From contig NC_086376.1 in assembly GCF_036588685.1 (NCBI RefSeq), forward strand, positions 79,959,630-80,023,629: a stretch of 64,000 nt of DNA, given 5' to 3'. Source of the DNA: Mytilus trossulus (lineage: Eukaryota). Positions 3,401 to 62,927 of this stretch are shown in pieces (positions within the stretch are counted from its first letter, which is position 1; each line of letters opens with the position of its first letter). The notes beneath the pieces are model-generated. The model had not been told where the DNA came from. It searched no databases and worked only from the letters and a program-made list of their open reading frames with translations. The position numbers and the translations under genes were made by a program.

Positions 3401-6400
3401 AATGATTTTTTTTTCTAATATAGGATTTCGCTATATTTTTTCATAAATGAACTTTATTATATACTTAAAAGAAAAATGAAATAAAAAGAAGGGGTCACCG
3501 TTCATTTCAGCTAAAATCTGCCTCTGGAAGAAGCATACATTTGTCCTTTTATTCTGTTGAACTAATAGGAGAAAAAGAGGAAATAAAAAAATAAAAAAAT
3601 AACCTAATATAAGAAACCGCTCAAATTTTACAATAATTTAGTTTATGTACAGCTTATTTGAAAACAATAATAAAAAATATAGGTCACCGATGAGTTAAAA
3701 AAGAAATTTCAAATTAAAGACCAAAAAATGGCATTTTTGCACCAAAGGGAGATAATTTGGAACTTTTTCAATTTTTAAAGACATCTGGGGCCAAACCAAA
3801 TCATTTTTTGGGGTTGTTTTTTGTACCATATCATAAAGTAACAGCTAATAGTGTAATAAATAAAATTTGTAATGATAAAAAAAATAAAGGTTTAATCTTT
3901 GCTAAAATTTTGTACCCACGAGCCACCTTAATATCTTTTAAAGTAAATATGAATTTTGAATTTATAGAAAACCTATATTTATCTTTGTTATAATTTTGGA
4001 AAATATTTCAATTACATACCTCATCTATGTCTGTACAGTGGGTACCATTTCCCTCGAAACCAGGCGGACAGTTGCCACAAATATATCCATCTGTGATATC
4101 ATCGCATGTTGCACCAGGAAAACAAGGACTAGGACTGGAACTGCAAGTAACAGGAAGTGACATACAGCCATTAATTGTCCCGTTTCCAGTCATCCCACTT
4201 GGACACGCTCCGCACTGGAAACCATCCTCTGTATTTGTACACACAGATCCTTCAAAACATGGCTGGGACGAGCACGTAATAATTATTGTGGCACATTCGT
4301 TTTTCAAACCAGTTCCGGTTTTACCAGATGGACACGCACCACATGTAAATCCAGTCTCTGTTTCAGAGCATTCTACTCCGTCATCACAAGGTTCTGAACT
4401 ACATGATGGCATGCATCCATCCCTTTCACCGTTACCTTTCATTCCTTCTGGGCAAGCGCTGCATTCATATCCATCCTTTGTGTCATTGCACAGAACTCCC
4501 TCAAAGCATGGATTTGAATTGCAACCAATAATAATCTTTTTGCAGTTGTCTTTGCTTCCATTTCCGGTTAACCCGATTGGGCAGTGCCCACATATATGTC
4601 CTGATTTTGTATCTGTACATGATACATTGTCAAAACATGGATATTTATCACATTTTATTATAGGTAACTTGCATCCGTTTTTTGTTCCATCGCCTTCCAT
4701 TCCGGACGGGCATTTCCCACATTTATAGCCTTTCCTGGTATTTGTGCATAAGACACCTTTAAAATTCAAAAAAAATATTACACAAAACACGTCAACTATC
4801 AATGGATGGAATCGATCTTTCGTAAAAAAAATTGTTTTACTATATCATATTTAATTGATATATGCAAAATTGAAAATGGAAATGGGGAATGTGTCAAAGA
4901 GACAACAACCCGACCAAATATAAAAAAAACAGCAGAAGGTCACCAACAAGTCTTCAATGTAGCGAGAAATTCCCGCAACCGGAAGCGTCCTCCAGCTGGC
5001 CCCTAAACAAATATATACTAGTTCAGTAATAATGAACGCCATACTAATTTCCAAATTGTACGCAAGAAACTAAAATTAAAATAAAACAAGACTAACAAAG
5101 GCCAGAGGCTCCTGACTTGGGACAGGCGCAAAAATGCGGCGGGGTTAAACATGTTTGTGAGATCTCAACCCTCCCCCTATACCTCTAACCAATGTAGAAA
5201 AGTAAACGCATAACAATACGTACATTAAAATTCAGTTCAAGAGAAGTCCGAGTCTGATGTCAGAAGATGTAACCAAAGAAAATAAACAAAATGACAATAA
5301 TACATAAATAACAACAGACTACTAGCAGTTAACTGACATGCCAGCTCCAGACTTCAATTAAACTGACTGAAAGATTAGGATTTCATCATATGAACATCAG
5401 GCACAATCCTTCCCGTTAGGGGTTTAGTATCATACCATTATAACATATATGAGAAGAACATAACCCATGTGAATGTTTTATATGTCTTTTACCACTTTGT
5501 TTTAATTGCTTTGTTCTTTTATTTTATGTTTACCTCTTTACAATTCTTTTTTTTTTATATTTTAACAAATACAGTGTTTGCCTCATTCAGTTTGATAAAC
5601 TGATCATAGATACCAGGTTTGAAATTGTGTACGCCAGACACGTGGTTCGTCTTCAAATGACCCCGCAGATGCCCGAATTAAAAATGCTAGATAAAGTACA
5701 AATTTAAGGACCCATAACTTTGAAAGGTTTGCAAAATTTAAAGTTTTGTAACCAGTAAATTTGTAATTATGACCATATAAATGATACTTCATGTCATCAC
5801 ATTAGTTCTGACTGACTATTGGGCTGGTGATACTGTAGAGGACTAAACCTCCACCGTGCAGCAGTTGAATCGATCCAGTATGGCTGTAAACACAAGCAGT
5901 TGTCTCCAAATAAAATACCTTAGGTGTATATCAAGAAAACATTTCAGAGACAAGAGCCTGTGTTTTATTATTATAAATAAACTCATCAGTGATGTCAAAA
6001 TTATATTTTGGGTGGTTCTGTGTCTTGAAACATTAGTATTTCTATAAAAGAAACAATAACTACTAGAAAAAAAGGTGGAAAAAATCCCGATTTCTAAAAA
6101 AGAAAATAACATGTGATCATCCTGTGTTCTCATCTTTTTTTTTTTGCAGTGATTTTTCTCATTTTAGTCAATACATGACTTTTATTTTGTTCGTTCCTTT
6201 ATATTTTAAAAACACTGATTCACTCCTGTTCTTGGTACAATATTTTGAGTTCATTGTACGTGTCATTTTTCGTTTCAAAATAAGTAAATCATGTACCTTT
6301 AAAACAAGGCTGCAGTTTACAGTTAGGCCGCAAAAAACACTTTTTACCATTTCCTTTGAAACCTGGCGGACATTTTCCACATTTAAAACCTCTCTTTGTG

Positions 6401-36477: not shown

Positions 36478-37375
36478 ATGGGCTTCAAACGACTTGGAAT
36501 GTTGACGTCTCTCATACTTGTCTTTGTTGTTACTGGATATGGGATTGCTGAAAGTTCATGTCACACAACATACGGTAAGTACATCGTGAAAGACTTATCA
36601 GTGGGTTTTAATTCTTGAGGAAGCACAACCACAATATATTCTTTTACAATATGATAAACGTGATGACTTTAATTCAGACGTTAACATGTTCCTCATAGTA
36701 TTCAGGAATCGGCCATTGTCGAACTTTACTGCTAATTGTCAGAATTATCCAAAATATTTTAAATTCTATGTAGCAATTTTGACATCAATTATGAGCGGTA
36801 TTATTCGGAGTAAGGTTTTAAATGTCGGGTTTTATATTCCAAAAAAAAGGTATGGAAATTGAAGACCATTGATGTGATCCTAAAATAATTATCTTTACTA
36901 ATTCCGACCATTTATTCATTATTTTAGGCTTATATAAAGTCAGTTTAATTGGTCGAAGTGTCGGTGATAAAATCCCTAAAGTTATAGCATTTTATACTTA
37001 CAAATCTAAAGACGTGAATCCAGGAGCTGGTCGTAGACTGGTATTTGATGTGACCAAGACAAACCAAGGAAACGGATACAATAGACATACTGGAGTATTT
37101 ACATGTCCAAAGACAGGAATCTACGTATTTATATGGGTCATTCGAATGTTTCATTCCGAGCATTCCACCGAGTTGATGATAAACAATACGATTTACGGGT
37201 CCACAGTCTTCGTGCCAATGACGGAGACGATGGATGAGTCAGTGGCACAGTTGTTGCTCATGTGTCAAAAGGAGATACAGTTTATGTTCGAAATCAGTCA
37301 ATATACGGCGGGAATGGTAACATATATAGTAACAAACTCGGTAAAACATCATTTTCGGGATGGCTTCTACAGTAG
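36478..37375 (+). pseudogene. Secreted globular C1q-domain (C1qDC) pseudogene
   Basis: Exon 1 36478-36574 (signal peptide); exon 2 36928-37375 (IAFYTY...LVFDVTKTNQGNGYNRHTGVFTCPKTGIYVF). A 1-nt frameshift near 37206 and an in-frame TGA at 37235-37237 precede VSGTVVAHVSKGDTVYVR...TSFSGWLLQ*. Confidence 0.85.
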
Positions 37376-38985
37376 AAAACAATAAATGCAATATGATATA
37401 TGCTTTTGATGTTAACTGTCTATCGTTTGATTTTTTTGTTTGTTGTGTTGGGTTTTTGCTGATCTGACTACTCATGTTTGGTACCATGGTCTCATGGTCC
37501 CTGAAAACACAACTTGAATTAGAATATACGTAAATATTATATTTCTCAGGATTTATATCAAAAGGTTTTATCAATTTCCTTGACAAAAGCATTTAACATA
37601 TGAACGGATATGAAATAACAGCCTTGAGATGAAACATTTTGAGAAGACGTCAGCAAATGTACGCTTTTGCAAGTATCACGGTTAGGAAGATAAAACAGGT
37701 ATCTTGTAAAAGAAAATACGTCATTAAATACACTAGCTATCAACCATATAAAACTAGATGCTTATAAAGTTATGTAAATATTGAAAAAAAAAACTATTCC
37801 AAGGTGTCGCAAACCAAACTATGCAACAAGATTTAGTGTCTATTCACCATTTGAATGTCCGTCCCTCTGTCATCTTTTGCCCCTCTTATCATTGATATGC
37901 TTCATTTTCTCAGGCCAATTAAGTACTCTAGAAAAGCGCCAGTATTCACTTCAATTCATTTTTTAAAGGTTGAAACATTAAATACACTTTGATGGTCATA
38001 CTAATAAATGGTCAAAGCAATTGTCATTAACTTTGATAGTATGTATTTTCGTAACCCGAAAGAGGAAAACTGAGCTGAGTTACTTGTTTTTTGTGTTTCG
38101 TAATTTTCATTATAGATCAATAAGTGACACTTGTATTAACTATTATTTACCTTATCCACACTGCTATCAACAACCAAGAGCGTCCACCTCTATTACACCC
38201 GACCCGATTATGGATGAGATTAGTATAAAATTGTTGACGAGATATACATAGGGATAAGTAGAGTATTCAACAATTGGTCTTTTGAGGTCAAAGCTCTTAA
38301 AAATTTATCGAGATTTGGTAAATGAAATCATGAAATATAAAATGTAATCTCTAGTGAATCTTACATTGTAGCTTGTCGGTATACTTATCTTTGTTGCTTA
38401 TCCAAAGTCTTCCCCTTCTTTTCATTGAAAAAAATTCAAATTTGTACAAATATAGGTACTTAAAGAAGAATATTTAGTGTTCTGGTAGTTCAAGAATTTA
38501 TTTTTCTTATCTCGGAAAAAATCCACAGAAAATATGAATGCGAGGTTTTCTGTCGGCAATATCGAATGCTTCGGACACAACGTTATGAGTACATGACAAC
38601 TATGGAAGATGTTAACTTAATAAAAGACTCAGTTATATATCTTTATTTATTGTTTAACAAGTATACATAGTATATCAGTCCAAACACAAATTGAATTATC
38701 CTTCTCTCACTCGCTCACCTCTACGGCTTATAGCTGATATATTGACCCTCTTCGATGAAAATGTTTTGTAATGATGTATGGCATGTCGAATTTGACATAT
38801 GTATGTATGATAGTCTGTCTTGCCAGCTGAAAGCTTATATTACGAGAGGTTCAAAGGACACTGGGCATGCTTGTTCATAGGGATCCTGTCAAACATTTTG
38901 ATGCTTTTTATGAAGAATGTCCTCAAACTAGAATATCCTCTTTCTTTATAACAGTTTTAGTGCATTTATTAGACACTGACATTGT

Positions 38986-41900
38986 TCACATAACATTACA
39001 TCCACGTCCTTTACGACTGCTTTTTCGATGTTTGCTTACGTAGTTGCCACTGATTGGCGAATGTTTGTCTCCTGCTGACGAAGACGGAGAAGGGGTTAAA
39101 CCAGGGATATATATATATGTCGACGTTTGCTCTGGAAAGATACATACAAGTGAAGTTAGATTATATTTCTAGATTAATAAATGGTGGTTATGTAAAAATT
39201 GACCTGTATTCAAAATTTCAGATAAAACGATTTGTTTTGCAAACTTAAACACTATAGTATAAACTTTCATGTGTGTTAATTATTTTGATATAAGTGAATA
39301 CTGCAACCTTTCTGGAAAATCTAAAACTGATAAATAAACGCTTGCTGTCATTGATATGATGAGAGAACACTTTTTAATTAGATGTTTTAATTGAAAAAAA
39401 ACATGCTTACTTTGTGTTGGATTGTTGTATTGTTTCCATTTGTCAGTTTCAGAGTTGTAAATATACTGTGGTATAATCGTATGGTCCTGTTCAAAGTTCC
39501 ACCAACTAAAGTTGAACTTTTTCTATAAAATAAATAAGAAAAGGTCAAAAATACTTAACGGAGCGGTACATTACAGACTCTTTCAAACGTAGTACTCTCA
39601 CATCTTTCTTACAATTCTGTCAACAAGTATTGATTCTTTTATTTTGCAAAAACAATCCAAACTGACAGTCACACAAAACTTCAAAACCCATAAAAATATG
39701 TTTGTATGACAACGTAAGGAAAGCTATGCAGTTACCGCCAGTTATTGTGTTAACACTTTTACTGTGTTTGTCTCACACAAAATAGAAGTAAATATTCTAC
39801 TATTATGTTTAAGACAAATTTTCAAAAATTCAACCTGTAATGAATGCTCAGTTGTTAAATGGACAGATGGTTCATTTCTGATTCCAGGTTTTATTTTATA
39901 TCACAGTCCTCTCTCCTATCTGTTTTCCCCTATTTTCTCTTCCCTCGTCCTACTTTCTTTCGGCAATCTTTTATTACCCTGTCCGTCCCTCATTTGAAAA
40001 AAAAAAAAATTTACCAAATAACTGGGCGTGTCCTCCACTTTACTTTCTTCTGATGGTTTCGTATTTTCCAGTTGTTTCATGAGAACTTCGGTTTCTTCTG
40101 TTAGTTTACCTTCTTGTTTTAATTCTTCAGTGAATGCCTCTAACTGTTCCTGGTTCGACTCCTTGTAACACACTGTAATATAAACACAACCAATAATCAA
40201 TAGAGTATTCCAACATTCCTCATTCATTCCATATTCTTGGGGAGGGGAAGAGAAAGATGGATTTTTCCGGATTGTATTTTCTTCTGTTGCAATGCATGCT
40301 TACTATTCCCTGCATTTTGTGATGCAAAATATTCATTCACATCCTGTTTCTGCAAGGTTATTTATATTCAGAATTAAATATGTTTTTTTTTAATCACAAT
40401 CCCTCTCCAGAAATCAATTGGTCGTTTCTGTTTCTTCATTTTTAACTTCACTGTGTACTTTTTGTTCCTTTTTCTGCAAGACTTTACCTTAATGTCGTAA
40501 CCCCTTTATATAATTTCGCTTCGTTAAATTGAAAACTCATTTGACTAGATATTATAGATGATTTCATCTTTATTCTGATAACTGATTGTTATATAAAATT
40601 GAGAATGGAAATGGGGAATGTGTCAAAGAGACAACAACCCGACCATAGAACAGACAACAGCAGAAGGTCACCAACAGGTCTGCAATGCAGCGAAAAATTC
40701 CCGAACCCGGAGGCGTCCTTCAGCTGGCCTTCCTGATATCAGAGTTCTCGAGTATTGTGGTCATATTTGCCTGTTACATTAACGAATAAATACCCGGACA
40801 ACAAATAGGGGTTGAGATTCTTACTAACGTCATCTCCCATACAATAATATCAAGATCAGTACAACATGATGAGATAAGGACAATGACAAGCAAAATCATA
40901 TACAACAATGATGGACATGTAAAAACACAAATAATTTAGCTAATAAATTCATTTGCGAACTTGTTTTTATGAATAAATTATCACAATTTATATAAAAACC
41001 ACAGCCAGACCATAGCCACGTTCAACGCAATAGCCCCATTCAATATATGCTCCCAGTAATGGCATGCATGCGCATGTTTAAATTTCACCCTAAAAGTATT
41101 CATACTAACAGAAAATAACATTGCAATGTATAATCATTTTAATGGTACGTACCTCCAAGAAACATTTCTGTAATTAAACTGAAGTTAGCTAATCTAAGAA
41201 GGCATCCGCCAGTACGGTCTGCTAACTCTTCATAAAACTTCTTGGCGTTTCCTTCTCCACTATTGCAAAATACACCATAAACCTAAAGAGATATGCATAA
41301 CACGTATTTTTAACGAAGAACTTTATTATTTCTGCTTATTTCGGTTGCTTTATCATAATTTTACCCAAAAGGACAAGCTTACATGAGATTCTATTTCTAT
41401 ATTTTCTGGTTTCTTTAGTCTGTACATTTTAATTGGTAATTCATTTGGTCAATGTTTTAATCCTTTTTATTTCAGGAAATATTAAAATCAACTTCACATT
41501 TACTATGTTCATCTGGCCCAAGACCACTTTGACATTTTGCTATCACTTTACATCCTTATCCAAAACTCTAGAACGAATTAAAAATACTTATGAGTAAAGC
41601 AGAGTTTTGCCTTCAACACGGTATCTTGAAAACTATAATATATAAGCAGTACAATGGTAGTCAAGGTAAGACATATTAGTACAGCAATTTCAATATGATC
41701 TCTATAATACATCTACTGTAGGAGTTATCGGTATAAAATAGAAAACAGCAATTATAAGGAACTGAAACATGGGGTCTGGGTTTTTTTAATGAACCTTTTA
41801 TCCCCGATTTTCAAACAAATTTTCAGTAGACACATTATTATCTGTTGAGTGATTCACGCTCCTTGTGGTTTCTAGTTTATATATCCAGATGTAGTCCTAG

Positions 41901-44900
41901 TTTGTTCTGGTAATGATACTAATCTGCCAATTTTCATATCACCCAATCACGTTTCTCGCACCCTAAGTATATGGACAAGAGTATAGTATATAATTGGCAT
42001 ACCTTAACTCCCATCCCCTTTAAGACATCTAGTTCTGTGTGCCAGTTGATGTTCTGGTCTGTATAAGATGGTGGATGTGGTTCGCAATCTCCAATAACTA
42101 CCAAAGCTTTGGCGGAATCTTCTGACCAGTCCAGCTGTTGAGCTTTGTGTAATGCCCACTCATAACACTGCAATAGAAAATATTATGGAATTGACAATTC
42201 ATTCCATTAAAACTGTTATATATATATTTTTTCGGGGGTGATGACGTGTGTTGATAAGTATGGAATGTTCGTTGGATAGGTCATCATCTTTGGGTTTCTT
42301 TTAACTTTTTTACCATACAATTTAAAATTGAACTTGAATGATTGAAGACTTCATGCAAGGTTTTCTTGAAATCATAAAGAGCTATTACAGCCAGCTTAAA
42401 GCTTAAACAACACATATGTTGCAAGGACAAACTGTTCGTTGTGTTAAAAACTTGTTATTTAGACTTCTTTTTTCGAGGGTTGCCTCATCACCAATCGTAT
42501 CACATCATCGTATCAAAGTGTTAATTTTACGTCTTATTTTTCAAACGCTCAACGCGAGATAACTCATTTTTAAACCACATTACCTCGGGTGAATCGCCTC
42601 CACCTGTTGATGGGGTACTGGAAGCAAAGTCAACCAGCTGTTGAACGTCTGTTGTTAGGTCCTGAATCTTGATGACGTAGTTATCATAATCACAATAATC
42701 ACCGTGGGCCATAATTCCAATTTTTATATTTGGTATGTCTCTTAAAAGCCGTTGACATGTTTCTTTTAATTTTGTCCTCACCTACAACCCGGATATTTTA
42801 TGATTACTAGTAATATAACAAGCAGAGAGAAATAATCACAAAATTAAGAATTTATTTTAAGGAATTCTAACTGATTTTATTATAGACTGTTAAATTTACT
42901 TTTGTTATGGACATGCTAAATTTTGCACATTTATTTTGAAACATTTGAATATTTTAATTGCAATAGCTGGTGTTAACATTTTTACATTTTACTGCAACAA
43001 TATAGAAATATTATTCGAATGTAGAAATACCATTTTATAAACCAACATTATTTTTTTTATTTGTCAACCCCATCCACCCCTAAAAAAAACAACTTATCTG
43101 ATCACATAAACTAAAGCAGCCTTACTTACACTCCCAAGATATTGACTCATGCTGCCAGTTGTGTCAAAACAAAACACAACTTCTACATTCTTTCCATTTG
43201 TCTCGAAACTTGAGAGGACGGCATCTTTCAAATCATCATCTATAGCTTTGGGATCTGTATCTTGAGCTGGGTCTAATAAAATAAAAATTAAATCAATAGA
43301 ATAAAATGAAAACAGGAACTTTGCTTCAAAGGTTCAGGGTTGATTTGTAAAACTTGTTAAACTGTGGTTTAATAAGAACATACACCAAACACCAGAACGT
43401 TAGTGTCTTCGTTTTTCCCATATCAAAATTAGTAGTCATGCTGCAGTTTATACTCTTAGGTAAATGCACTGGACAGTTATTAATGTGAATTTTACTTTTG
43501 CCACATATGGTCTAGATCTGCAACGGGGTGAACTGGATAAATCCCAACACAGTTTGTGGTTGCTCTAAGTTTGGTCTTCTGAAATTAATTGCTAAATCGC
43601 CTTTTTTACTTTTGACATAATTTGATAATCAATCAAACATTTTCTGCACGATAGGTCTAGCTCCAAACAACTCGAGTCTTGAAAAAACTATTTGAGTTTA
43701 TAACGGTCAACCATTTCTTAGATATGTCCCCCCTTTTTAAACTTGACAAAGGCATAGTTTAAGGTAAATAGAAGAAGCGAAATATAATTGTTAAATACAT
43801 AACAACCCTGACAGGTACAAGAAAAACAATAATTTTAAAATAACGTCTCAAATAGTGGTCGCAGTTACTGATGACAAGCTCATAGTATTAGAAAAAAACC
43901 GTCATGTCGATGAGAAATTACATTGTCCAACACTTGAATATCAACGACTGTAGTAAAACACGATCCCCCTTATAAAATCACGCCCAAATTTTATTCTTGT
44001 TTCAAATAACCAATCTTCTAACCCTGATCACAAGTCTACTAACCATATAATTCGCAAGTCTATCAACGAGTGTGCTAAAATACCCCTCCTTATAAAAATC
44101 ACACACAAACACCAAGTGCATAACTCTCGGTAATGACCTCTCTAGATTCGCTAGAGTGTTGGGATCAGTGGCGGACCCAGGGGAGAGTTCCAGGGGTTGG
44201 AACCCCCTTTTTTTTGACAATCAATGCATTCCGCCCCAGGGGATTAACTCCAACAAAGAGTAACAAGAAATAACTCCTACCTGATTCTGTTCAATCGTCT
44301 GCTTTGTCACCGAATGTCACTTGTATAAAGAGTAACAAGAAATAATTCCTACCTGATTCTGTTCTATCTTCTGCTTTGTCACCGAAAGTCACTTCTATAA
44401 CACTTTCCTCTCTAATACTTGTTTCATATAGTGGTGTGTTACATGGACGATAAACAGTGCCTGAGATTTTGAAGGACTGAAGAAAATATTTATAAAATTT
44501 GAAACTTTATAGTAGATTTTAATGTACAACTTAATAAATTGCATGTTTTGATTAATGTATTGTTTAAAAAAAATTATCCAATAGTAATTCTATCAACGAT
44601 AAAGTCACTTCATGAAAAAGTCAATTCCATTTGATTATATCAATGAAATAAGTCCATTACAATTTTACTTATGCTTATATCAATAATATTTTTCATAATA
44701 CCAGGCTTATAATTTGATACGCCAGATGCGCGTTTCGTCTTCATAAGAATTATCAGTGACGTTCAGATCTTTTAATACTTGTAAAGCCATACAAATACAA
44801 AGTTGAACAGCACTGAGGACCTTACAATAAGATTTTGTTTATTTTAGGGGTTAATAAAAATAAATTATTTGTCATGTTGTAGACATTATAATTTTCTATT

Positions 44901-45896
44901 TTTCCTGTTAAACTTTCATTCTGTAAATGGAAATAAATTATTGTCGTGTGTACACGTACCTTCACTGTTTTAGGAGAAACAATCTCTAGTCGTTCAACCA
45001 CAGATTTAAAATCTTCTAATGTACTAATGTTCTGTATATCCACTGGCGCGGAACCTCCTCCAACTACTTTAGCATACACTTTGATATCTCTTGGAATTAC
45101 GAACTGTGGATGAAATATAACGCATATATATTTGAAGATAACTTAAGGTTAATGTTGAAATGCTATATTGAAAAACGATAAGTGGCAAGGCAAATTACTT
45201 GCATTTGTTCGCAGTGCCAAATATAAAAGTATATTTAAAAGTGTTAACTCAAAGCGGTATATATGGGCTTTGCTCATTGTTATAAGCCATATGATGTCAT
45301 TTGGTCTCTTGTTGCAATTATACCCCATCTTCTGGTTTTCTATTAAATCCGTTACCAACAATATGTTTGTAAAATTTTTCATCGAAGAATGTCTCTTACC
45401 AAAGGTTACAGCTTTACCTTCACCAAAACAATATCTTGTTCAGGATGTCTTTGTATATATGTATACATATTTTTGGGGGTAAAATTTGCTGTGCTTTCCT
45501 GAGCCATTAAATTAATGAATTAATTAAAATATCAATGAATTTTTAGGTATAAAAACACAAAAAATGTAAATCTGCAAAAGAAATTAAATGTAATACATCC
45601 CACAATTAAGTGTATTCCTGTGAGCATATCAAATATAAACAAAAAATAAAAAAAGAATTACATATATATACCTCTGCTTTCAGTATAGTTTCTGGACAAA
45701 TTCCGAGGAATCCGATTGTTTTAGATTTATCAAGAAATTTTCCTTGGTACTTCACTCTTACTCTCCCGGGGATAATTTCTTCTTCTTTTGCAATCTGTTC
45801 AATAATTCTTTTTACTTGTTCCGTGGGTAATAATTTCAAAACTGAAGTACGACCTGTCGGTAATTTCACATAAACATCAACTAAAGGAGTTGCCAT
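38986..45896 (-). CDS. Di-ubiquitin-like + VWA (MIDAS) + polybasic CaaX protein, copy 1 (514 aa)
   Basis: Exons 45672-45896, 44960-45103, 44353-44476, 43130-43272, 42584-42781, 42003-42167, 41153-41282, 40015-40172, 39411-39522, 38986-39131; 1545 nt, all GT-AG, phases consistent. Ubl1 VYVKLPTGRT...YQGKFLDKSKTIGFLGI; Ubl2 VYAKVVGG...PLYETSIREESVIEV; VWA VVFCFDTTGSM / GGGDSPE / LVVIGD; C-terminus KHRKSSRKGRGCNVM*. Confidence 0.9.
44257..44400 (-). repeat. 72-bp tandem duplication of the exon-3 end and donor site
   Basis: aagagtaacaagaaataa(c/t)tcctacctgattctgttc...gtcactt(g/c)tata occurs twice; donors at 44351-44352 and 44279-44280. Confidence 0.9.
44697..44822 (-). mobile_element. Truncated family B copy with a degenerate hammerhead (44718-44764)
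   Basis: Minus strand: AACGUCA CUGAUAA UUC-UUAUGAA-GAC GAAA CGCGC AUC UGGCGU (G8A change). Confidence 0.7.
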
Positions 45897-47099: not shown

Positions 47100-49360
47100 C
47101 GAACAAAAGACATTAAAAGAGCTAAGAGATGTCAATAGGAAAAGATTACAAACACTGAGGAGATTAGAGAACCTTAGAAAGAACAGAAGGAAAGGAGCAA
47201 GAAAGGGATCACAATTTACTTTGTAAAGAAACTTCTAGGAGATAAAAGATCACGCCGGTGAGATTGCCCAAAAAATAGGTTGAACAATATTTGGGAGATA
47301 CTCGTAGTGATCTAGACAGAGAACAAGAGCTTGGAGACCAACATAAACTGATAGGTCCAGATGAGCCAACAGTAGAGTTTGATATGCAAAAAACCCAAAC
47401 TCCATTAAGTGATGTAAAATTTAAAGAGCAGCATCATCAACTGGACCAAACGGTCCATACAGAGTTTATAAGAACTGTCCAAACCTCGCAAAACATCTAT
47501 GGAGTCTTATCAAAGTTATAGGAGAAGAAATCGGTATCCAGATGAATGGTTACTTGAAATCAGATGGTTGTTTTATTCAAAAGGAGGAAGATTCTAAAGA
47601 GCTGAATTAGTTTAGGACCATATAACTTCGCAACGTTGAGGGAAAGGTTTGTCTTGCAATCTTGCTTTTGCGAAGCAGGTTACAACAATTATGCTTGAGA
47701 TCAACTATATCGACATCTCAGTACAGAAAGGAGGAGTACCAGGGTACCTCGAACATACAAGCGTTTTAAGAAAGTTTACCCAGGAAGCCAAGGAAAACAA
47801 AGGTGATTTGGCTGTCCTGTGGTTAGACCTGGCAATTGCTTACAAAAGTATTCCACACAAGCTAGTTGACGTAACCTTGGAGTACTATCACATACCTTGA
47901 AAGATTAGAGAAATGCTTCAGTACTAGTTTAACAACTTTATAATATGTTTTACAGTGACAGACTACACAACAGCATGGCAAAGGCTAGAAGGGGGAATCG
48001 TTACAGCATGTACCATATCAGTAGTTTTATTCTCAGCAGCAATAAAAATGCTAGTAAAATCAGCAGAGAAGATGAAAAGAGGGCCTGTAATGTCATCTGG
48101 GATAAGTCAGCCACCAACAAGAGCATTCATGGATGACATGACAATAACAGCAAAGTGTATGCTGCAAGATCTATGTGAGCTTATAGGCTGGGCACGTATG
48201 AAGTTCAAGACATCAAAGTCAAGGAGTGTGATATTAAAGAAAGAAAAGGTGCAGGACAGAAAGATTAGGATTGGAGGAGACATCATTCCAAAAATCATGG
48301 AGAAACCGGTCAAAAGCTTGGGCAAGTGGTTTAGAGACTCCTTGAACCACATAGAAAGCGTAGATGGGTGGTATCTCAGGCAGGAAATAGGATGGACATT
48401 ATTGACAAGTCTGGTTACCCTGGAAAGTACAAGGTGTGGTGCTACCAGCATGGAATATTACCAAGGATAACTATTGGTGTACGAAATATCTCTAACCAAA
48501 GTTGAAAGAGAGGATGTTCAACAGTTACAGAAATGGCCTGGGGTTCCAAAGAGTTTTAGCAGCATTGGCTTGTACAGCACCAGTTCAAAACTTCAACTAC
48601 CACTGTCTTCTATCACAGAGGAGTTTAAAGTCACCAAAACCAGACAAGACAGTAAAGATGACAAGGTGAAAGAGGCAAATGTTGATGTCATGAAAGGATG
48701 AAAATGGGTGGCCAAGAGCGCTGTTGAAAATGTAGAGAGCCGATTAAGACAGAGAGACATAGTGGGAGTGGTGACTTCAGGGCCACTTGTGTTTGGCAAC
48801 ATTCAGCAACCATTATGGCAGTCAGTAGATGCAAGACTTAAAAGTGAAAACTTGTTCATCAAGAAGTTCTTCGTGGAGAGGCGGATAGTCATCAAAAGAC
48901 ACATACAGCAAAGCCAGTGGTATTCTAGCAACAGCAAATGACTGGGAGATGCAAGCCGACGTTGAGTGAAAGACCACCTTCCCAAACGAGATTCTAATAA
49001 CAACCCTCCGACCAAACATTGTGCTAACAGTGCCAATGGAAATAAGACTGGATGAAGCCCATGAGAGAAAGCTTGCCGAGTACCAGGAATTGGTAACAGA
49101 CATCCAAGAGAAGAATTGGATGACATGGTATTTTCCAGTGGAGGTAGGCTGTAGAGGCTTTGTTTCTCAAGCATTGTGGAGAGCCTTAGGACTAACTGGA
49201 CCAGTCAGAAGAAGCTTGGTTGGAAAAGTTGGGAAACATGCTCGTTCCTGGCTGAGTCTGATCAACTCAGTCGGCGCACCCCTGGAGATTGTCGTGGACA
49301 ACGCCGAAACAGTCGAGGAGAGGTGATCCACCTGATGATGGAACCTGTTAAGCAGTGAAA
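47100..49360 (+). mobile_element. Decayed non-LTR retrotransposon, RT plus restriction-like endonuclease (Hero/R2-group-like)
   Basis: Fragmented ORFs contain QKGGVPG.LEH, LWLDLA.AY.SIPH, GIVT.CTISVVLF and AFMDDMTI (RT), then TLRP.IV, LTVPME.RLDEAHERKL..Y..L and FPVEVGCRGF (RLE); many stops and frameshifts. Confidence 0.88.
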
Positions 49361-49399
49361 AACATGGTATTTAAGGTATTGAAAAGTGAAAAATACGCA

Positions 49400-53128: not shown

Positions 53129-56100
53129 TCACATTACATTACATCCACGTCTTTTCTTGTGACGATCTCCCCTAAATAAGCTACACTCAATCATTGGCGA
53201 ATTTGTGTCGCTTGATGTCAAAGTCGAAGGAGGGACTGAAAAAAAAAGATATTGAATACATTAGAGAAGTTTGATATACTGACCCCTCTATGTGGATTTG
53301 TAAATGGTGGTGATGTAAACACTGACCTATGTTCAAAATTCCAGAAGTCGATTTCACAAAACAACTTACGACTTAGATTAATCGTAAGTATGCTGATTTG
53401 TTCATGACTTAAGACCAATCTTAGTCGTAAGTTTTTTTTGTGAATTTATATATACACTCTTCCTCCCTTATAAGAGAATGTATTAGATGTCGTAATTTTT
53501 TGTATAATTAAATACAAACATTAAAACAATGAAGGGAAAAGTTGAAACTGACCATGTAAATATTTCTATCATTGATATGATTAGATGTTTTTTTGAGAAA
53601 AAAATTCTTACTTTGTGTTGGATTGTTGTATTGTTTCCATTTGTCAGTTTCAGAGTTGTAACTATACTGTGGTGTTTTAGTATGGTCCTTTTTAAAGTTC
53701 CACCAATCAAATTTGTATTTTTTCTGAAAAATACAAAAAAGTAAACATTTCTTTTCAAGCAGATTGACATTACTTCGCCTTCTGTTTCAAAGAGATTGCC
53801 AAAACGCAGCGGTACTTCGCCGACTATTTAGAACAGATTGTCATTATGCAGCAGAACTCGCCGACTGTTCCAAAAATTCTGTCAACAAAATTTGAATTAT
53901 TTATTCAAAATCAAAATATGCTGACACGACACTTTTTCAGTTACCAACGAGTTACAAAATTTGCTACTAGTTTATATTAAATAAAAACATTAAACATGCT
54001 CAGTGGATGAATGAACGCATTCTCTTTTTCACCCGCTTTTCCCGATTTTCCAATTTCCAGTTTCAGTGTTACATCCATCCCTGATTAAAAAAAGATTTAC
54101 CAAGTAACTGGGAGTGCCCTTCGTTTTTCTTTCTTCTGATGGTTTCGTATTTTCCAGTTGTTTCATGAGGTCTTTGGTTTCTTCTGTTAGTTTACCTTCT
54201 AGTTTTAATTCTTCAGTGAATGCTTCCAACTGTTCCTGGTTCGACTCCTTGTAACACACTATAAAGGAGAGATAACCCATACAAAATACCCGTTGAAGTA
54301 TTTCGACGTTTGTCATTCTAAGGGGGCTAACATTTGTATTCTGGTTGGGGTAGTAGGATTCTTTTGGGATTGTCTTTTTATTTTCATTTATTGCTCCGCA
54401 TGCTAATTATTTTCTGCATTTTGTGTTTTTGTCAAATATGATTCAATGATTTACATATTTAAAAGCACAAATAATTTAAATGATTATATACTTTTAATAT
54501 ATATATATAATATATATATATAAACAAATGCACAGTCAGACCAGAGCCCCGTTCAATACTACTGCCATACAACATATTCCCCTGTCCTAGAATACATATG
54601 CATGTTAGTACTCGTTCATAAAGGCTTTTATAGCTACTAGTGAAAAACTCAGTTCAGTTGTTTAAATATTTTGATACGAATCAAATATCATTGTAATGTA
54701 TAATAATTTTAAAGTTATATACCTCCCAAAAACATTTCTGTAATTAAACTGAAATTGGCTAATCTAAGAAGACATCCACCGGTACGGTCTGCTAATTCTT
54801 CATAAAACTTCTCGGCATTTCCTTCTGCACTATTGCAAAATACACCATAAACCTAGGGAGATATGCATAATAGGTATTAAAGTATATTTATTTGTTCAGC
54901 TTTTTCAGTCGCTTAATCAGTCTTTTACTAGAAAAAAGAAGACATGTTTTCAGGAAAAATCTACTTGAATACTATTTTTCTGGCTCTTCAATCAGTCAAT
55001 TTTAATTGCTATTTGATAATTTTTCTTTCGGTCATCTTTATCTCAAGAAATAAGTAAAACTTCACATTTTAGCTCATTTGGCGGAATGCCATTTTGAGCT
55101 TTTACTATTACTTCATGTACGTCTCAGAAACGTATGAACCAGTCAAACAAAACTTCTCAATCTAATTAAGATATTGGACTCTGATTTTGTTATGATGTAG
55201 TATAACGAAATCAGAGATCAATATTTTTAATTAGATTGAAAAATTCTTATCCTTATAGTATCAGGATTCGATTTCGTAAATTTTATACCGGTACATCAAA
55301 ATACGATGCTGACTATATTAATGATAAAACATTAAGGGAAAATACATGTAAGTCTTTTGTATATTAAAAAACACAATATGTACAGGATCAGTTTAAAGTC
55401 CTTTTTTTTTTATAGAAGAAGTTTCACTGTTCACTGACATCGGCAACCTCTGCAACCGGTCGTGTTGCATCTCGTTATCATCGTCATTCCAGTAACCAGT
55501 CATCCAGTTTCATATTAGACAAGAGCAGAGTATCTTATTATCGTACCTTAACCCCCATCCCTTTTAAGACGTCTAGTTCTGTGTGCCAGTTGATGTTCTG
55601 ATCTGTATAAGATGGTGGATGTGGCTCATGGTCTCCGATTACAACCAAAGCTTTGGCCGAATCTTCTGACCAGTCCAGTTGTTGAGCTTTATGTAATGCC
55701 CACTCATAACACTGAAAAAGAAAATACAATGAACTTGATTTATTGGCCTAAATATTAATTCATCTTAAATGCTTGGTTAAACATTGTAAATTGGTGTTTG
55801 TTTATGTTGGTTTTTTTTCTTTTTCGGGAGGGGTGTTATGGCAAGTGTGGAATTTTCGTTGGTAAGGTCTCCAAAGTTTTTGTTTTCTTAAGACTTTAAG
55901 GCCCCAAAATGTTTAAATGAGTTTGCGATTGGGACAATACATAAAATATGCAAGTTTTAAAAAAAAATGATCAAGAGTTGCAACCAACTCGCATGTGTGA
56001 TCAATTATAGATATTTTGCAAAGACAAACTGTTAGTTGGCATCACATACTTGACCTTAGTCTTTGTTAGATAACTTTCTTCTCATACTTGTCCTTAGTCT

Positions 56101-59100
56101 TTGTTAGATAGATGTCTCATCAGCAATCGTACAACCTCTGATTTATTCTTCATGTTCTTACATGTTATCATAATTGTGTGAAATAATCTCGAGGTTACTT
56201 TTAATTTGATTTAAACATTCAAAGCGAGATAACTCGTTTTTAAAACCATTTAAGTACCTCTGGAGCATCGCCTCCACTAGTTGATGACGTACTAGAAGCA
56301 AAATCTACCAGCTGTTGAACGTCTGATGTCAGGTCCTGAATCTTGATGACGTAGTTTTCATAATCAAAATAATCACCGTGAGCCATAATTCCAATTTTTA
56401 TATTTGGTATGTCTCTTAAAAGTTTTTGACAAGTTTCTTTTAATTTTTTCCTCACCTACAACCCAAACATTTTATGAATTACAAAGAGAAAAGAAACAAT
56501 TTAAAAAAAAAAAAACACGAATTTATTTTATTTGGAGAGAGGTAAAAAAAAAAATTGGTCAAGAAAATGCTCAATTCTGTATTTTTTTTTTATAAATATG
56601 AAAATTGAAATTGAAATATCTGGCACAGAAATTTTTGACTCTTCAACGCAAAGCAACAATAAATAGAAAAAAATGTAGTCTGCAGAAATGCCATCGTTTT
56701 CTTACTTTCTCAAGATATGGACTCATACTACCAGTTGTGTCAAAGGAGAACACGACTTCTACATTCTTTCCATTCGTCTCGAAACTTGAGAGAACGGCAT
56801 CTTTCAAATCATCATCAATAGCTGTGTGATCTGTATATTTGATTTGAAAAAAAATATTCATAGAATAAATTAAAAGGGAAACGGGAATTTTGCTTCAAAC
56901 GTTCAGAGTTATTTTGAAACGCTGTTTTAAAAAATCATACACCAACCAACAGCACTTTACAAATAATGTATTGTCTCTTTTTTCTTATTAAAATTGTTTG
57001 TAATGTTTTTTTAATCATATTGGTAACTGCTATGGACAGGTTTTACCTGGATTATAATTTTGAGATGTTCTAGATTTGTAAAGGGATATGAACTGCAATA
57101 ATCCCAACATACTGTTTCTGTACCAAGTTTGGTTTTCTAAAGTTTACTTTCATCATGTTTTATTTACTCAAAGTAAAATGAATTGAATGCAAGTAAACCA
57201 TTTAATAATAAATAATGTCCGCTCCAGATTACAATATGATAAACAAAACAATGTAAATATCAGCATGTTATATTTCGAAATGAACAAAACTTTACCAGTC
57301 TAGGCTTTAAGAAGTCGAGTGTTGGTAGTAAGTGTGATCTGTTAAAATGGTCCAACAATTTGTGGTAGTGTTTAATTTTCATACACATCGATCGAATAAT
57401 TAACTTTTTACAGAATTTCATAATTTCATGCACTCTGATATGTCGAGCTCAAATCACCTCGTTTCTCGAAACCTAAAGCACTTGGAACAAGATCTGCTAA
57501 ACCTTCCGAGGCACATGATATCACACAGGGGTGTTTTGATAGGGTTCCTGTTGCAATCTATAGTTCCCTATCTATAGTGTGCCTTGTAAACAGTTGTTTG
57601 TCAGTTGGTCATTTTTCGTTTTATTTTTTCCTGTTTGTCGTTGTAAATAAAACTGAGAATGATAAGGAGGAATATTGTCATAGAGACAACCTAACCAAAG
57701 AGCAGAAAACAGCAGAAGGTCACCAATGGGTCTTCAGCACAGCGAGAAAATCCTGCACCCCGAAGCGTGCTTCAGCTGGCCCTAAACAAAAATGTGTACT
57801 AGTTCATCGATAAAAGTTTGTTTTCGATTGATGAGTTTATATGTCCCTATTATGCTATGTTTCGTTTCTTCTTTGGAAAAGTATGTAATTACAACTATGG
57901 ACAAAGAAAGATAACTCAAATTTTTAAAGATGACTTAACAACGACATCATTGATTACATGATTCCTGCACCTTACAAAGGTGATTTTACTTGACAAAATA
58001 GCACCCTTTTGTAATTTGAATATCTGAGCATATATTTCATTGATTAATTGCTGGAAATGTTCATGGATGGGGTGAATAGAATGTTATGGTCAATGCACTA
58101 TATTTAGTGTATCTCAAAATTAGTAATAAACCTTGGAAGATTTAGATATCAAGGTAGTAACATGGGGTTTTGGTTGTATTTCTGCAATCTTTACCCAAAA
58201 ATAATGATTTATAACATTATGTCACATAACGCTCTCGGTTAGTAAAAGCAAGCTCATAAAACTTTAAAACATGTCGGTCTCCCACCTCTAAAAAAAGCAC
58301 GCACACAGACACACATGTGCAAAACTAAACAAAGCAAAATAACACGGACTTTTTATTCTCGTTTCAGATCACAAGGCTGTAAACCATTCATGCTTTTCCT
58401 GGACTCGACACAAGTTTTGGGGTTTACTTAAACAAAGATTTACAAGAAATCATACCTACCAGTTTCTGTTCTGTCGTAGATAGTCACTTCTATAACACTT
58501 TCCTCTCTAATACTTGTTTCATATAGTGGTGTGTTACATGGACGATAAACAGTGCCGGAGCTTTGGAAGGACTGAAGAGTAAAAATAAATAAATTTGAAA
58601 GTTTAGTAAATTTTAATATTCATAACTTCATGGAATGCTTTTTTTTTAATACAAATTCATTTTAGTACATTGTTGAAAAGGATTCTATCAATGGAAGTCA
58701 ATTAATAATGGCTATATCGATTAGACTTTGTTCATTTTAGATTAAAAAAAAGAAAAAAGAAACTATTTGTAGAAATTATATTTTTTTCTACCCCTCCCCC
58801 TCCCTCCACCCCCCTCCTTTAAATTTTCTTTCATATTCTAGAATTGAAATGACACTTACTTGCACTATTTTTGGAGACACAATCTCTAGACGTTCAACAA
58901 CAGCAGATTTCAAATCCTCTAATGTACTAATGTTCTGTATATCTATAGGAGCTGAACCTCCTCCATCTACTTTAGCATAAACTTTGATATCTCTTGGAAT
59001 TACGAACTGTGAATGACATATTACGCACATATTTGAAAACAAACAAAACGTGTATGCTGTAACATAATCGGTGTGAAGAGCTAGGGCCAATTTTCAAATT

Positions 59101-60250
59101 AAATGTTGCACTCGTAAGGTCAAATATTGAATCATTTAAATCTTTAAAAGTCCGAAATGTAAACTTGAAACCGTTTTCTACTAGTTACGTATATCTGAGA
59201 ATATCTAGCTAGATTAAAACAGATACCAGTCTTACTCCGCGACATCACTATCATCTTCTCTATCTTTTTATTCAGCATTACAGATATTTCTATGCTCTTT
59301 TATGGGCATTATGTTTTTCTGGTCTGTGCGTTCGTTCGTTCGTTCATCTGTCCCGCTTCAGGTTAAAGTTTTTGGTCAAGGTATTTTTTTATGAAGTTGA
59401 AGTCCAATCAACTTGAAGCTTAGTATGTATACATGTTCCTTATGATACGATTTTTCTGATTTTAATACCAAATTAGAGTTTTTAACCCATTTTCACGGTC
59501 CACTAAACATAGAAAATGATACTGCAGATGGGGCATCCGTGTACTGGGGACACATTCTTGTAGATGTATCAACTACTTTTGTTGTAAAACTAGATGAATA
59601 AGAACAAAAACACATTAAATAATTGAATTTGATATTTATGATTTTTTTTAAATACAACACAAATTAAAAAAATCTGAATATCATAGTATGTAATTATTCA
59701 ATACGTTTAAATAAAGCGCCCGTGGAAAAAAAACATTTCACAAAAAGTAAAAACACAAAAATACTGAACTCCGAGGAAAATTCAAAAAGGAAAGTCCAAA
59801 ATCAAAAGGCAAAATCAAAAGTCCATACACATCAAACGAATGGATAACAACTGTTATATTCCTGACTTGGTACAGGCATTTTCTAATGTAGAAAATGGTG
59901 GATTGAACCTGGTTTTGTAGCTAGCTAAACCAGGCTCTCACTTTTATGACAGTCGCATCAAATTCCATTACATAGTCAACGCAAGCGACTGTGGAAAAAA
60001 AAACAAAAAAGAATAAGATATATACCTCTGCTTTCAGTATAGTTTCTGGACGAATTCCGAGAAATCCGATTGCTTTAGATTTATCAAGAAATTTTCCTTG
60101 GTACTTCACTCTTACTCTCCCGGGGATAATTTCTTCTTCTTTTGCAATCTGTTCAATAATTCTTTTTACTTGTTCCGTGGGTAATAATTTCAAAACTGAA
60201 GTACGACCTGTCGGTAATTTCACATAAACATCAATTAACGGAGTCGCCAT
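53129..60250 (-). CDS. Di-ubiquitin-like + VWA (MIDAS) + polybasic CaaX protein, copy 2 (492 aa)
   Basis: Exons 60026-60250, 58860-59006, 58460-58571, 56706-56830, 56258-56455, 55547-55711, 54723-54852, 54101-54258, 53612-53723, 53129-53235; 1479 nt, phases consistent. VVFSFDTTGSM, GGDAPECYEWAL, LVVIGD; C-terminus RHKKRRGCNVM*. Confidence 0.9.
53353..53444. mobile_element. Mini fold-back element in intron 9 of copy 2
   Basis: ttcacaaaacaacttacgacttagatt / aatcttagtcgtaagttttttttgtgaa; not present in the homologous intron of copy 1. Confidence 0.7.
55157..55239. repeat. 83-bp hairpin
   Basis: tcaatctaattaagatattggactctgattttgttat / ataacgaaatcagagatcaatatttttaattagattga. Confidence 0.75.
59290..59562 (+). 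mobile_element. Family E element in intron 1 of copy 2
   Basis: tttatgggcattatg...(gttc)n...ggggcatccgtgtactggggacacattcttg. Confidence 0.65.
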
Positions 60251-62136: not shown

Positions 62137-62716
62137 ACATTCTATGTGTATACAAAATTAAGTCAAAATTTAGTCATTGATTCACATTCTCCGATACATT
62201 CTATGTGTATACAAAATTTAGTCATTGATTCACATTCTATGTGAATCAATTATACAAAATTTAGTCATTGATTCACATTCTATGTGTATACAAAATTTAG
62301 TCATTGATTCACATTCTATGTGTATACAAAATTTAGTCATTGATTCACATCCTACAAAATTTAGTCATTGATTCACATTCTACAAAATTTAGTCATTGAT
62401 TCACATTCTACAAAATTTAGTCATTGATTCACATTCTACAAAATTTAGTCATTGATTCACATTCTACAAAATTTAGTCATTGATTCACATTCTATGTGTA
62501 GAAATCTATAGTACAAAATTAATTAAGTCATTGATTCACATTCTATATGTATACAAAATTTAGTCAAAATTTAGTCATAGACATAGATTCACATTCTATG
62601 TGTATACAAAATTTATTCATTGATTCACATTCTACAAAATTTAGTCATTGGTTCACATTTTATGTGTATAATACATACAAAATTTAGTATTTTTTCTATG
62701 TGTCTACAAAATTTAG
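62137..62716. repeat. Tandem satellite with 36-bp and 28-bp unit variants
   Basis: tacaaaatttagtcattgattcacattctatgtgta (36 bp) and caaaatttagtcattgattcacattcta (28 bp), roughly 15 units. Confidence 0.92.
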
Positions 62717-62927
62717 CCTCAATGATGTTTACGAAGGGAAAGACAATAAGTACAACAGTCCACACACAACTAATGACTTATTTTACATACTTTTGTCAAA
62801 ATCTTATTATTTATGGGAATTGTAGTTTTAGCAATTAGTTTTAGAATTGTTGGTCTTTGTTTTCAAATGTGTATAGTAAGTCCACATTGGCACAATACTT
62901 TTAAGGATAGATAAAATCACAGTTTAA

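What the first reader, a model, noticed from the sequence alone, without database searches (positions are those of the whole stretch)
38986..39131. Hidden K-Ras4B-like membrane anchor kept in both paralogs while the rest of the last exon diverged
The last exons (38986-39131 and 53129-53235) are not in the ORF track. Spliced in phase, they end ...SKHRKSSRKGRGCNVM* and ...GDRHKKRRGCNVM*. Upstream sequence and length differ (48 vs 35 full codons), yet the polybasic tract and CNVM persist, with a synonymous change in Val (gtt/gta). CaaX ending in Met is a farnesyltransferase substrate, and a polybasic tract is the classical second signal for the plasma membrane. Copy 2 has an extra upstream Cys (IECSLF) that might be palmitoylated.
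Basis: partly seen in the sequence, partly recalled or inferred. Interest (0 to 1): 0.7.

Follow-up and report, generated by a model that had tools for sequence, protein, structure and literature searches.

The report
Membrane anchor of mussel ubiquitin–vWA proteins
Two neighbouring mussel genes encode an unstudied protein that ends in a standard signal predicted to attach a lipid and tether it to the cell membrane; the signal is ordinary, but the protein belongs to an ancient family whose members keep a likely membrane-binding tail of one of two interchangeable types and, in amoebae and a sponge, carry a fused Ras- or Rac-type switch domain.

Summary
Both tandem minus-strand genes splice over 10 GT-AG exons into open frames of 514 and 492 aa ending in a basic tract plus CNVM. 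A transcript-like contig joins exon 9 to exon 10 of copy 1, and both models equal existing RefSeq predictions (514/514, 492/492), so the exon is not hidden. Retention in both paralogs is weak evidence (25/27 nt, the same rate as exons 1-9). The length difference is a splice-acceptor shift. The 'extra' Cys is ancestral, kept in copy 2 and mostly lost in copy 1. The strong evidence is family-wide. The protein is two ubiquitin-like domains + MIDAS-bearing vWA + WW element + tail, found from Amoebozoa and Capsaspora to molluscs and echinoderms. Of 62 GTPase-less members, 42 end in basic tract + CaaX and 13 in a Cys-free basic-hydrophobic tail; tail type switches at least 8 times on the tree. 21 of 211 relatives carry a fused Rac- or Ras-type G domain before the tail. 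Verdict: an ordinary prenyl anchor on an apparently undescribed, likely membrane-tethered adaptor family; the link to GTPase signalling is inferred only.

The parts
45672..45896 (-). Copy 1 exon 1: start codon and ubiquitin-like domain 1
   Evidence: (PF00240, E 1.5e-8)
44960..45103 (-). Copy 1 exon 2: first part of ubiquitin-like domain 2
44353..44476 (-). Copy 1 exon 3: end of ubiquitin-like domain 2, linker
43130..43272 (-). Copy 1 exon 4: linker and start of vWA with the D-x-T-x-S MIDAS motif
42584..42781 (-). Copy 1 exon 5: vWA, ending in the loop with the invariant Glu
42003..42167 (-). Copy 1 exon 6: vWA with the last MIDAS Asp
41153..41282 (-). Copy 1 exon 7: end of vWA
40015..40172 (-). 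Copy 1 exon 8: two helices after vWA, acidic linker
39411..39522 (-). Copy 1 exon 9: conserved aromatic WW..Y.Y...D.W element
38986..39131 (-). Copy 1 exon 10 coding part: Ser/Thr/Pro linker, basic tract (39001-39033), CNVM (38989-39000), stop (38986-38988); Gly codon at 39046-39048 where other Mytilus have Cys
38703..38985 (-). Copy 1 3' UTR as far as covered by the spliced contig
   Evidence: X2 record 18
60026..60250 (-). Copy 2 exon 1: ubiquitin-like domain 1
   Evidence: PF00240, E 3e-8
58860..59006 (-). Copy 2 exon 2
58460..58571 (-). Copy 2 exon 3
56706..56830 (-). Copy 2 exon 4 (acceptor 18 nt downstream of the copy-1 position)
56258..56455 (-). Copy 2 exon 5
   Evidence: X2 record 12, 2 differences, joined on both sides
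55547..55711 (-). Copy 2 exon 6
54723..54852 (-). Copy 2 exon 7
54101..54258 (-). Copy 2 exon 8
   Evidence: X1 record 4, 0 differences
53612..53723 (-). Copy 2 exon 9: aromatic element
53129..53235 (-). Copy 2 exon 10 coding part: linker, upstream Cys (53183-53185), basic tract (53144-53173), CNVM (53132-53143), stop (53129-53131)
   Evidence: 3' part and UTR covered by X4 record 13

Best explanation
Both genes splice into a protein with two ubiquitin-like domains, a vWA domain with an intact metal site and a disordered tail ending in a basic tract plus CNVM, which is predicted to be farnesylated and to tether the protein, likely as an adaptor, to the inner face of the plasma membrane. Steps: (shown) splicing of copy 1, open frames, motif, domain folds, no signal peptide or transmembrane segment, family-wide retention of a membrane-type tail; (from established CaaX biochemistry) FTase adds farnesyl to the Cys, RCE1 removes the last three residues, ICMT methylates, and the basic tract binds anionic lipids as in K-Ras4B; (inferred) the vWA metal site clamps an acidic residue of a partner while the non-conjugatable di-Ubl, whose hydrophobic patch is replaced by invariant Lys/Lys/Glu, binds a second partner; (weakly inferred) the pathway involves a Ras- or Rac-type GTPase, because relatives carry one fused in front of the tail. 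My odds: prenylated anchor 0.9; plasma membrane rather than endomembranes 0.65; two-handed adaptor 0.5; GTPase pathway 0.3.
For: Gene models, phases and GT-AG ends; spliced contig with all nine introns; identity to RefSeq models; chance test 2 of 2,122 and 10 of 65,849. Family: 43 of 62 complete GTPase-less members have Cys at -4, 42 with net charge +3 or more, 37 with Met last; 13 of the other 19 have a Cys-free basic-hydrophobic tail, 2 have Cys at -6 in a basic-hydrophobic tail, 4 look truncated; 10 of 10 further members found later end in Cys-x-x-Met; only 4 of 100 vWA-core hits without Ubl or G-domain match have Cys at -4. AlphaFold2 on a 35-row alignment: mean pLDDT 76.7, residues 466-512 almost all below 50; Foldseek top hits linear di-ubiquitin and ISG15; VIA-align top hits integrin beta I-like domains, Z 18.3 (rmsd 2.5, 180 aligned) and 18.0. 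D201, T203, S205, E278, D305 invariant in 35 of 35. Ubl1 has Lys at the Ile44 position in 35 of 35, Lys at His68 and Glu at Val70 in 34 of 35, and no di-Gly. Highest 19-residue hydropathy 1.5. X = Met, Ser, Ala or Gln selects FTase, and K-Ras4B needs farnesyl plus polybasic (PMC13524398, passages); an aliphatic a2 residue leads to proteolysis and methylation (PMC11152559, passages). 21 of 211 vWA-core relatives match a G domain.
Against: No prenylation, localisation or binding was measured. a1 is Asn, not aliphatic, and CNVM does not occur in PMC11152559 (0 hits). Net charge in the 15 residues before the CaaX is +6 in copy 1 but only +3 to +5 in copy 2 sequences, so copy 2 may target the plasma membrane less well. 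The copy-2 exon 9-10 joint was absent in 4 of 4 runs. Only 5 of 21 Cys-free tails have a hydrophobic moment above shuffles, so 'amphipathic helix' is not shown; I labelled them by eye. Only one animal protein (Sycon) has the G domain, and it is degenerate and lacks a CaaX. The sequence match of the vWA to integrin beta is insignificant (E 0.56), and the structural Z-scores of the top vWA hits are tied.
Confidence: 0.7

Rival explanations
1. The tail is the relic of a fused Ras-family GTPase: the ancestor was Ubl-Ubl-vWA-Ras-CaaX, bilaterians lost the G domain and kept its hypervariable region, so the likeness to K-Ras4B is partly by descent.
For: In the vWA-core tree the clade holding animals, Capsaspora and archamoebae contains the Ras-type fusions (Mastigella P0145, P0147, P0096, Sycon P0089), and their G domains group at SH-aLRT 99. 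GTPase-less rows sit next to GTPase-bearing rows with the same tail type (P0093 with P0147; P0099 with P0107 and P0108). 13 of 21 fused proteins end in Cys at -4.
Against: Capsaspora has a CaaX and no G domain; Sycon has a G domain and no CaaX and a very long branch (1.95). A basic-aromatic S-[FLI]-R motif shared by 9 of 86 rows lies before the G domain in Sycon, so the basic element belongs to the host protein. Rac-fused members also carry Cys-free tails that are not typical of Rac. Two gains and one loss need fewer events than one gain and at least four losses (my count on the tree, whose base is unresolved).
Confidence: 0.15
2. The paralogs are splitting their second signal: copy 1 relies on a stronger basic tract with two serines as a possible phospho-switch and is losing the upstream Cys, while copy 2 keeps the Cys for palmitoylation and has a weaker tract, so they sit on different membranes.
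For: Copy 1: net +6 in 9 of 9, two Ser in the last ten residues in 8 of 9, Cys at the ancestral position in 3 of 9. Copy 2: net +3 to +5, Cys in 9 of 9. Purifying selection on both copies, dN/dS 0.19 over 1-466.
Against: The Cys is 14 residues from the prenyl site; the nine sequences per copy are close relatives and partly redundant; only 10 of 43 CaaX members have any Cys in the 20 residues upstream. A neutral loss in a fast-evolving linker explains the pattern equally well.
Confidence: 0.15
3. It works like a MUB/UBL3 protein: a membrane-anchored ubiquitin fold that binds and restrains ubiquitin E2 enzymes at the plasma membrane, with vWA as an accessory.
For: Ubiquitin fold without di-Gly plus C-terminal CaaX on a flexible tether is the MUB design (PMC4996978, passages).
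Against: MUBs are about 120 aa with one ubiquitin fold; these are about 500 aa with two Ubl and a vWA. Pfam gives PF00240, and the MUB-type family did not appear for either first exon or for P0002/P0003. The Ile44-equivalent patch is replaced by charged residues.
Confidence: 0.08
4. The CaaX-like end is a chance or non-functional feature of a cytosolic protein.
For: No experiment; paralog similarity alone is uninformative.
Against: Retention across molluscs, echinoderms, hemichordates, Capsaspora and Amoebozoa while the linker is unalignable; rate of such ends by chance about 1.5e-4.
Confidence: 0.03

Closest known systems
K-Ras4B hypervariable region (farnesyl + polybasic)
   Same: CaaX ending in Met directly after a basic tract on a disordered tail; PMC13524398 passages give these as the two signals.
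   Different: No G domain in the Mytilus proteins; Arg-rich and less charged tract (+6 and +4 in 15 residues); a1 is Asn; no homology of the tail was shown.
MUB / UBL3 membrane-anchored ubiquitin-fold proteins
   Same: Ubiquitin fold without di-Gly, anchored by a C-terminal CaaX on a flexible tether (PMC4996978, passages).
   Different: Two Ubl domains, a vWA, a helical pair and an aromatic element; about 500 aa against about 120; hydrophobic patch replaced.
RIT1/RIT2 lipid-free basic C-terminal extension
   Same: The Cys-free tails of brachiopod, nemertean, oweniid, brittle-star and heterodont-clam members are basic and rich in F/I/L/W (5.0 against 1.7 per 18 residues), as expected of a lipid-free anchor; RIT uses such an extension instead of a CaaX (PMC13565119, passages).
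   Different: This applies to relatives, not to the window's genes; membrane binding of these tails is untested.
CPRas (cpRAS-VWA) proteins
   Same: A Ras-family G domain combined with a vWA domain, scattered over Amoebozoa, Capsaspora and a few animals, with G-domain-less relatives in molluscs and annelids (PMC2430557, first of four parts and passages).
   Different: There the G domain is circularly permuted and N-terminal, the vWA is Sec23/24-like with a zinc finger, and the text has no mention of ubiquitin (0 hits). Here the G domain is in normal order, C-terminal, and follows Ubl-Ubl-vWA.
Integrin beta I-like vWA domains
   Same: Best structural matches (Pactolus Z 18.3, beta-3 Z 18.0) and a D-x-T-x-S ... 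D-x-P-E ... D pattern.
   Different: Cytosolic, no signal peptide; sequence match insignificant; other vWA domains tie in Z.

Membership tests
CaaX-prenylated proteins (FTase class) | Cys four residues from the true C-terminus of the spliced protein | tested here: met
CaaX-prenylated proteins (FTase class) | X = Met/Ser/Ala/Gln and aliphatic a2 | tested here: met
   X = Met, a2 = Val; rule from PMC13524398 and PMC11152559 passages; a1 = Asn is not aliphatic
CaaX-prenylated proteins (FTase class) | Cytosolic access (no signal peptide or transmembrane segment) | tested here: met
   highest 19-residue hydropathy 1.5, 0.78 near the N-terminus; a simple scan, not a trained predictor
CaaX-prenylated proteins (FTase class) | Covalent farnesylation, proteolysis and methylation in cells | not testable with these tools
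   needs labelling or mass spectrometry
K-Ras4B-type anchor (prenyl + polybasic) | Polybasic tract next to the CaaX | tested here: met
   6 K/R in the 15 preceding residues in both copies; net +6 and +4
K-Ras4B-type anchor (prenyl + polybasic) | Plasma-membrane localisation that needs both signals | not testable with these tools
   needs GFP-tail imaging
Ras-superfamily GTPases | G domain | tested here: not met
   no Ras, Roc or small_GTP match in P0002/P0003; present only in 21 of 211 relatives
MUB/UBL3 | Single ubiquitin fold of about 120 aa directly before the CaaX | tested here: not met
   two Ubl + vWA, 514 and 492 aa
MUB/UBL3 | No C-terminal di-Gly; CaaX instead | tested here: met
MUB/UBL3 | E2 backside binding with lap-bar loop | not tested
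   no comparison with the MUB loop was run; the Ile44-equivalent is Lys in 35 of 35
Conjugatable ubiquitin-like modifiers (ISG15, FAT10, polyubiquitin) | Di-Gly at the end of a Ubl domain | tested here: not met
   Ubl1 runs straight into Ubl2 without di-Gly in the 8 rows printed; no di-Gly at the end of Ubl2 in the column make-up
MIDAS-containing vWA domains | vWA fold | tested here: met
   PF25106 above cut-off for P0002; VIA-align Z 18.3, rmsd 2.5, 180 aligned
MIDAS-containing vWA domains | D-x-S/T-x-S plus two further acidic or hydroxyl ligands conserved | tested here: met
   D201, T203, S205, E278, D305 in 35 of 35; their role as metal ligands is inferred from position
CPRas (cpRAS-VWA) | Circularly permuted N-terminal Ras domain | tested here: not met
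   absent from the window's proteins; relatives have a normal-order C-terminal G domain
Palmitoylated CaaX proteins (H-/N-Ras type) | Conserved second Cys close to the prenyl Cys | tested here: inconclusive
   Cys 14 residues upstream in 9 of 9 copy-2 sequences; 3 of 9 in copy 1; 10 of 43 in the family

The most novel reading that the evidence does not exclude
An undescribed, Amorphea-wide signalling module, di-ubiquitin-like + MIDAS-vWA, that must sit on the inner membrane (anchor swapped at least 8 times between prenyl-CaaX and a lipid-free basic-hydrophobic tail) and works with Ras/Rac GTPases: fused to them in amoebae and a sponge, and acting on them in trans in molluscs and echinoderms, the K-Ras-like tail possibly being what remains of the lost GTPase.
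Probability: 0.3. Interest if true: 0.65.

Novelty: new member of a known kind. Interest (0 to 1): 0.36.

Why it matters
The anchor is textbook, and finding it in two 90%-identical paralogs is not news. What it adds is a location for an uncharacterised family that databases label only 'ubiquitin-like domain-containing'. The family is a natural experiment in which prenyl-dependent and lipid-free anchors replace each other on the same protein body, so their equivalence can be tested directly by tail swaps. If the repeated fusion to Ras- and Rac-type G domains reflects function, it points to an old small-GTPase adaptor kept in molluscs and echinoderms, for which none of my searches returned a vertebrate, insect or nematode member among the listed hits.

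Tried and rejected
Complex prediction of the Ubl-Ubl-vWA part of P0092 with its own Rac-type domain: no verdict, score 0.00 in two runs, alignments not used; no evidence either way. The look-up of sequencing runs listed no holder on record as RNA; the runs laid are guessed RNA and were used only for the joints they show. The 53155-53612 joint in 4 of 4 runs was rejected as evidence for copy 2: its loose ends and mismatch pattern are those of copy-1 transcripts. The Fisher test used a wrong count (26/27); one search gives the corrected 25/27, p = 0.010. Gene conversion of the tail is not needed (P = 0.59 at the exon 1-9 rate). 'Amphipathic helix' for the Cys-free tails was weakened to 'basic-hydrophobic' (5 of 21 above shuffles). 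Cys-free animal tails as one paralog lineage: rejected by AU test, p = 1.6e-7 (group named after seeing the tree). Pfam on the two last exons: 0 families. NCBIfam on P0002: 0 families. No solved close relative of the vWA by sequence. ESM Atlas: own unnamed cluster first (0.97), other hits below 0.9. Literature: five full-text searches returned no listing about this family; only listings were seen except for PMC2430557; subscription papers and supplements were not searched. One paper id was not held. Earlier scan findings: nothing by sequence, words or place. A third copy in G000: none above 50% identity with exon 6.

Full report
1. Is it there? The window lies in a 1.3-Gb genome (G000:C4). A self-comparison shows a tandem duplication of about 39.4-46.1 kb and 53.6-60.4 kb. 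Both copies give a 10-exon minus-strand gene with GT-AG introns, matching phases and no internal stop: 514 and 492 aa. Exon 9 ends in phase 1; exon 10 is 146 nt (2 + 48 codons with stop) and 107 nt (2 + 35). The ends are KHRKSSRKGRG-CNVM and RGDRHKKRRG-CNVM. Of 2,122 stop-terminated frames in the window only these 2 combine a CaaX-like end with net charge +4 or more; 10 of 65,849 do in 30 simulated windows.

2. Is it spliced? Four public runs (guessed RNA, contigs) were laid on copy 1. X2 shows all nine introns as joints, including 39411/39131, on a 1,915-nt contig that reaches 38703; the other three runs show six or seven of the upstream joints but not this one in the table. On copy 2, four runs show copy-2-like pieces (0-3 differences in exons 5 and 8; a contig over the 3' part of exon 10 and UTR), but not the 53235 acceptor; the joint they do show there comes from copy-1 transcripts. 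Both models are identical to RefSeq predictions XP_063434887.1 and XP_063434889.1, and two Logan contigs of 1,684 and 1,681 nt encode a whole copy-2-type protein with the short junction. The exon is hidden only from an ORF track.

3. What the paralog comparison shows. Exons 1-9 are 88-97% identical, exon 10 76%. The last 27 nt match at 25, more than the rest of exon 10 (51 of 76; p = 0.010) but no more than exons 1-9 predict (P = 0.59). Most of the length difference is a 36-nt acceptor shift. dN/dS over residues 1-466 is 0.19. The duplication predates the split of M. californianus from the other Mytilus sampled, since it has both tail types at adjacent loci. The upstream Cys is present in 9 of 9 copy-2 and 3 of 9 copy-1 sequences, so it is ancestral and mostly lost in copy 1, not gained in copy 2; copy 1 has the more basic tract (+6 against +3 to +5).

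4. What the protein is. Exon 1 matches PF00240; the orthologue P0002 adds VWA_4 above cut-off. AlphaFold2 on a 35-row alignment gives two beta-grasp domains, a vWA, two helices, a short aromatic hairpin and a disordered tail (mean pLDDT 76.7). Foldseek returns linear di-ubiquitin and ISG15; VIA-align returns integrin beta I-like and other vWA domains at Z 17-18. The five putative metal ligands are invariant in 35 of 35. Ubl1 has no di-Gly and carries Pro, Lys, Lys, Glu where ubiquitin has Leu8, Ile44, His68, Val70 (32, 35, 34, 34 of 35), so it is neither a modifier nor, by inference, a usual ligand of ubiquitin receptors. No signal peptide or transmembrane stretch was found.

5. The family. 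Searches return members from bivalves, gastropods, a chiton, brachiopod, annelids, nemerteans, bryozoan, echinoderms, hemichordates, Sycon, Capsaspora and many Amoebozoa (names), all labelled uncharacterised or by domain. Of 266 proteins examined, 211 have the full vWA core; 62 have both Ubl, vWA and aromatic element and no G domain; 43 of these have Cys at -4, 42 with a basic tail, 37 with Met last. Of the other 19, 13 have a Cys-free basic-hydrophobic tail, 2 have Cys at -6 and 4 look truncated (my reading). Ten members found later all end in Cys-x-x-Met. On a tree of 88 rows (76 labelled; 12 set aside as other or truncated) tail type changes 8 times against 18.6 in shuffles, 4 times among 48 animal rows, and the Cys-free animal tails are not one clade (p-AU 1.6e-7). 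Unionid, bryozoan and one Mya tail are hybrids, basic-hydrophobic with a Cys.

6. The GTPase link. 21 of the 211 carry a G domain between the aromatic element and the tail: Rac-type in one amoebozoan clade (10 intact, degenerate in dictyostelids), Ras-type in Mastigella and two unnamed records, and a degenerate one in Sycon whose nearest solved structure is GEM. Two kinds of G domain imply at least two fusions or one replacement. I read this as a hint of a shared pathway. Whether the mussel tail descends from such a GTPase is open; Capsaspora (CaaX, no G domain), Sycon (G domain, no CaaX) and a basic motif placed before the Sycon G domain argue that the anchor belongs to the host protein.

7. 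Mechanism. Most likely FTase farnesylates the Cys, RCE1 and ICMT finish the end, and the basic tract binds anionic lipids (PMC13524398 and PMC11152559, passages), holding the protein on the inner plasma membrane by a flexible linker. There the vWA metal site would bind an acidic residue of one partner and the di-Ubl another. Splicing, motif, folds and conservation are shown; lipidation and location are predicted; adaptor role and GTPase partner are inferred.

8. Known systems and novelty. It works like the K-Ras4B anchor but is not a GTPase; it shares the MUB design (PMC4996978, passages) but fails MUB membership; the Cys-free relatives recall RIT (PMC13565119, passages); CPRas (PMC2430557, first part and passages) is a separate Ras-vWA pairing. 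Five literature searches found no description of this family; subscription papers and supplementary tables, where such a domain architecture could be listed, were not seen. Verdict: real, ordinary anchor; new member of a known kind; modest interest (0.36) owed to the family, not to the paralog comparison.

Noticed in passing
P0041, P0044 and their clusters; P0101: Mytilus proteins with a histone-H3-tail-like N-terminus (recalled likeness), the same vWA core (69-72% identity to P0002) and a C-terminal PARP domain in place of the anchor; sister to the window's genes in the tree. No such close vWA copy was found in G000 beyond the two window genes. An unnamed record P0101 has a similar N-terminus on the same core.
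   Followed up: partly
window 39107-39118: A (TA)n run inside the coding part of copy-1 exon 10, two codons longer than in M. galloprovincialis; a change by a non-multiple of three would remove the CaaX. The two contigs covering it show no gap.
   Followed up: partly
window 43272 and 56830: Exon 4 acceptor of copy 2 lies 18 nt downstream of that of copy 1; with the exon 10 shift, two in-frame acceptor moves separate the paralogs.
   Followed up: partly
window 44289-44360: The end of copy-1 exon 3 with its donor site is duplicated about 72 nt downstream in the intron.
   Followed up: no
window 4008-4844 (-): Cys-rich open frame with tandem EGF-like repeats (PF12947 above cut-off), probably one exon of a larger gene.
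   Followed up: no
window 36873-37385 (+): C1q-domain exon (PF00386, E 2.5e-11), about 1.3 kb beyond the 3' end of copy 1 on the opposite strand.
   Followed up: no
window 47928-49370: GC-richer stretch between the two copies with broken frames that look like a decayed retrotransposon (recalled likeness; no Pfam match).
   Followed up: no
P0120-P0137, P0321-P0334: The same vWA core occurs at about 50% identity in bacterial proteins (Chlorogloeopsis; WGR-domain fusions), and intron-less vWA frames of 43-50% identity lie elsewhere in G000.
   Followed up: no
window 62137-62726: Tandem minisatellite upstream of copy 2.
   Followed up: no
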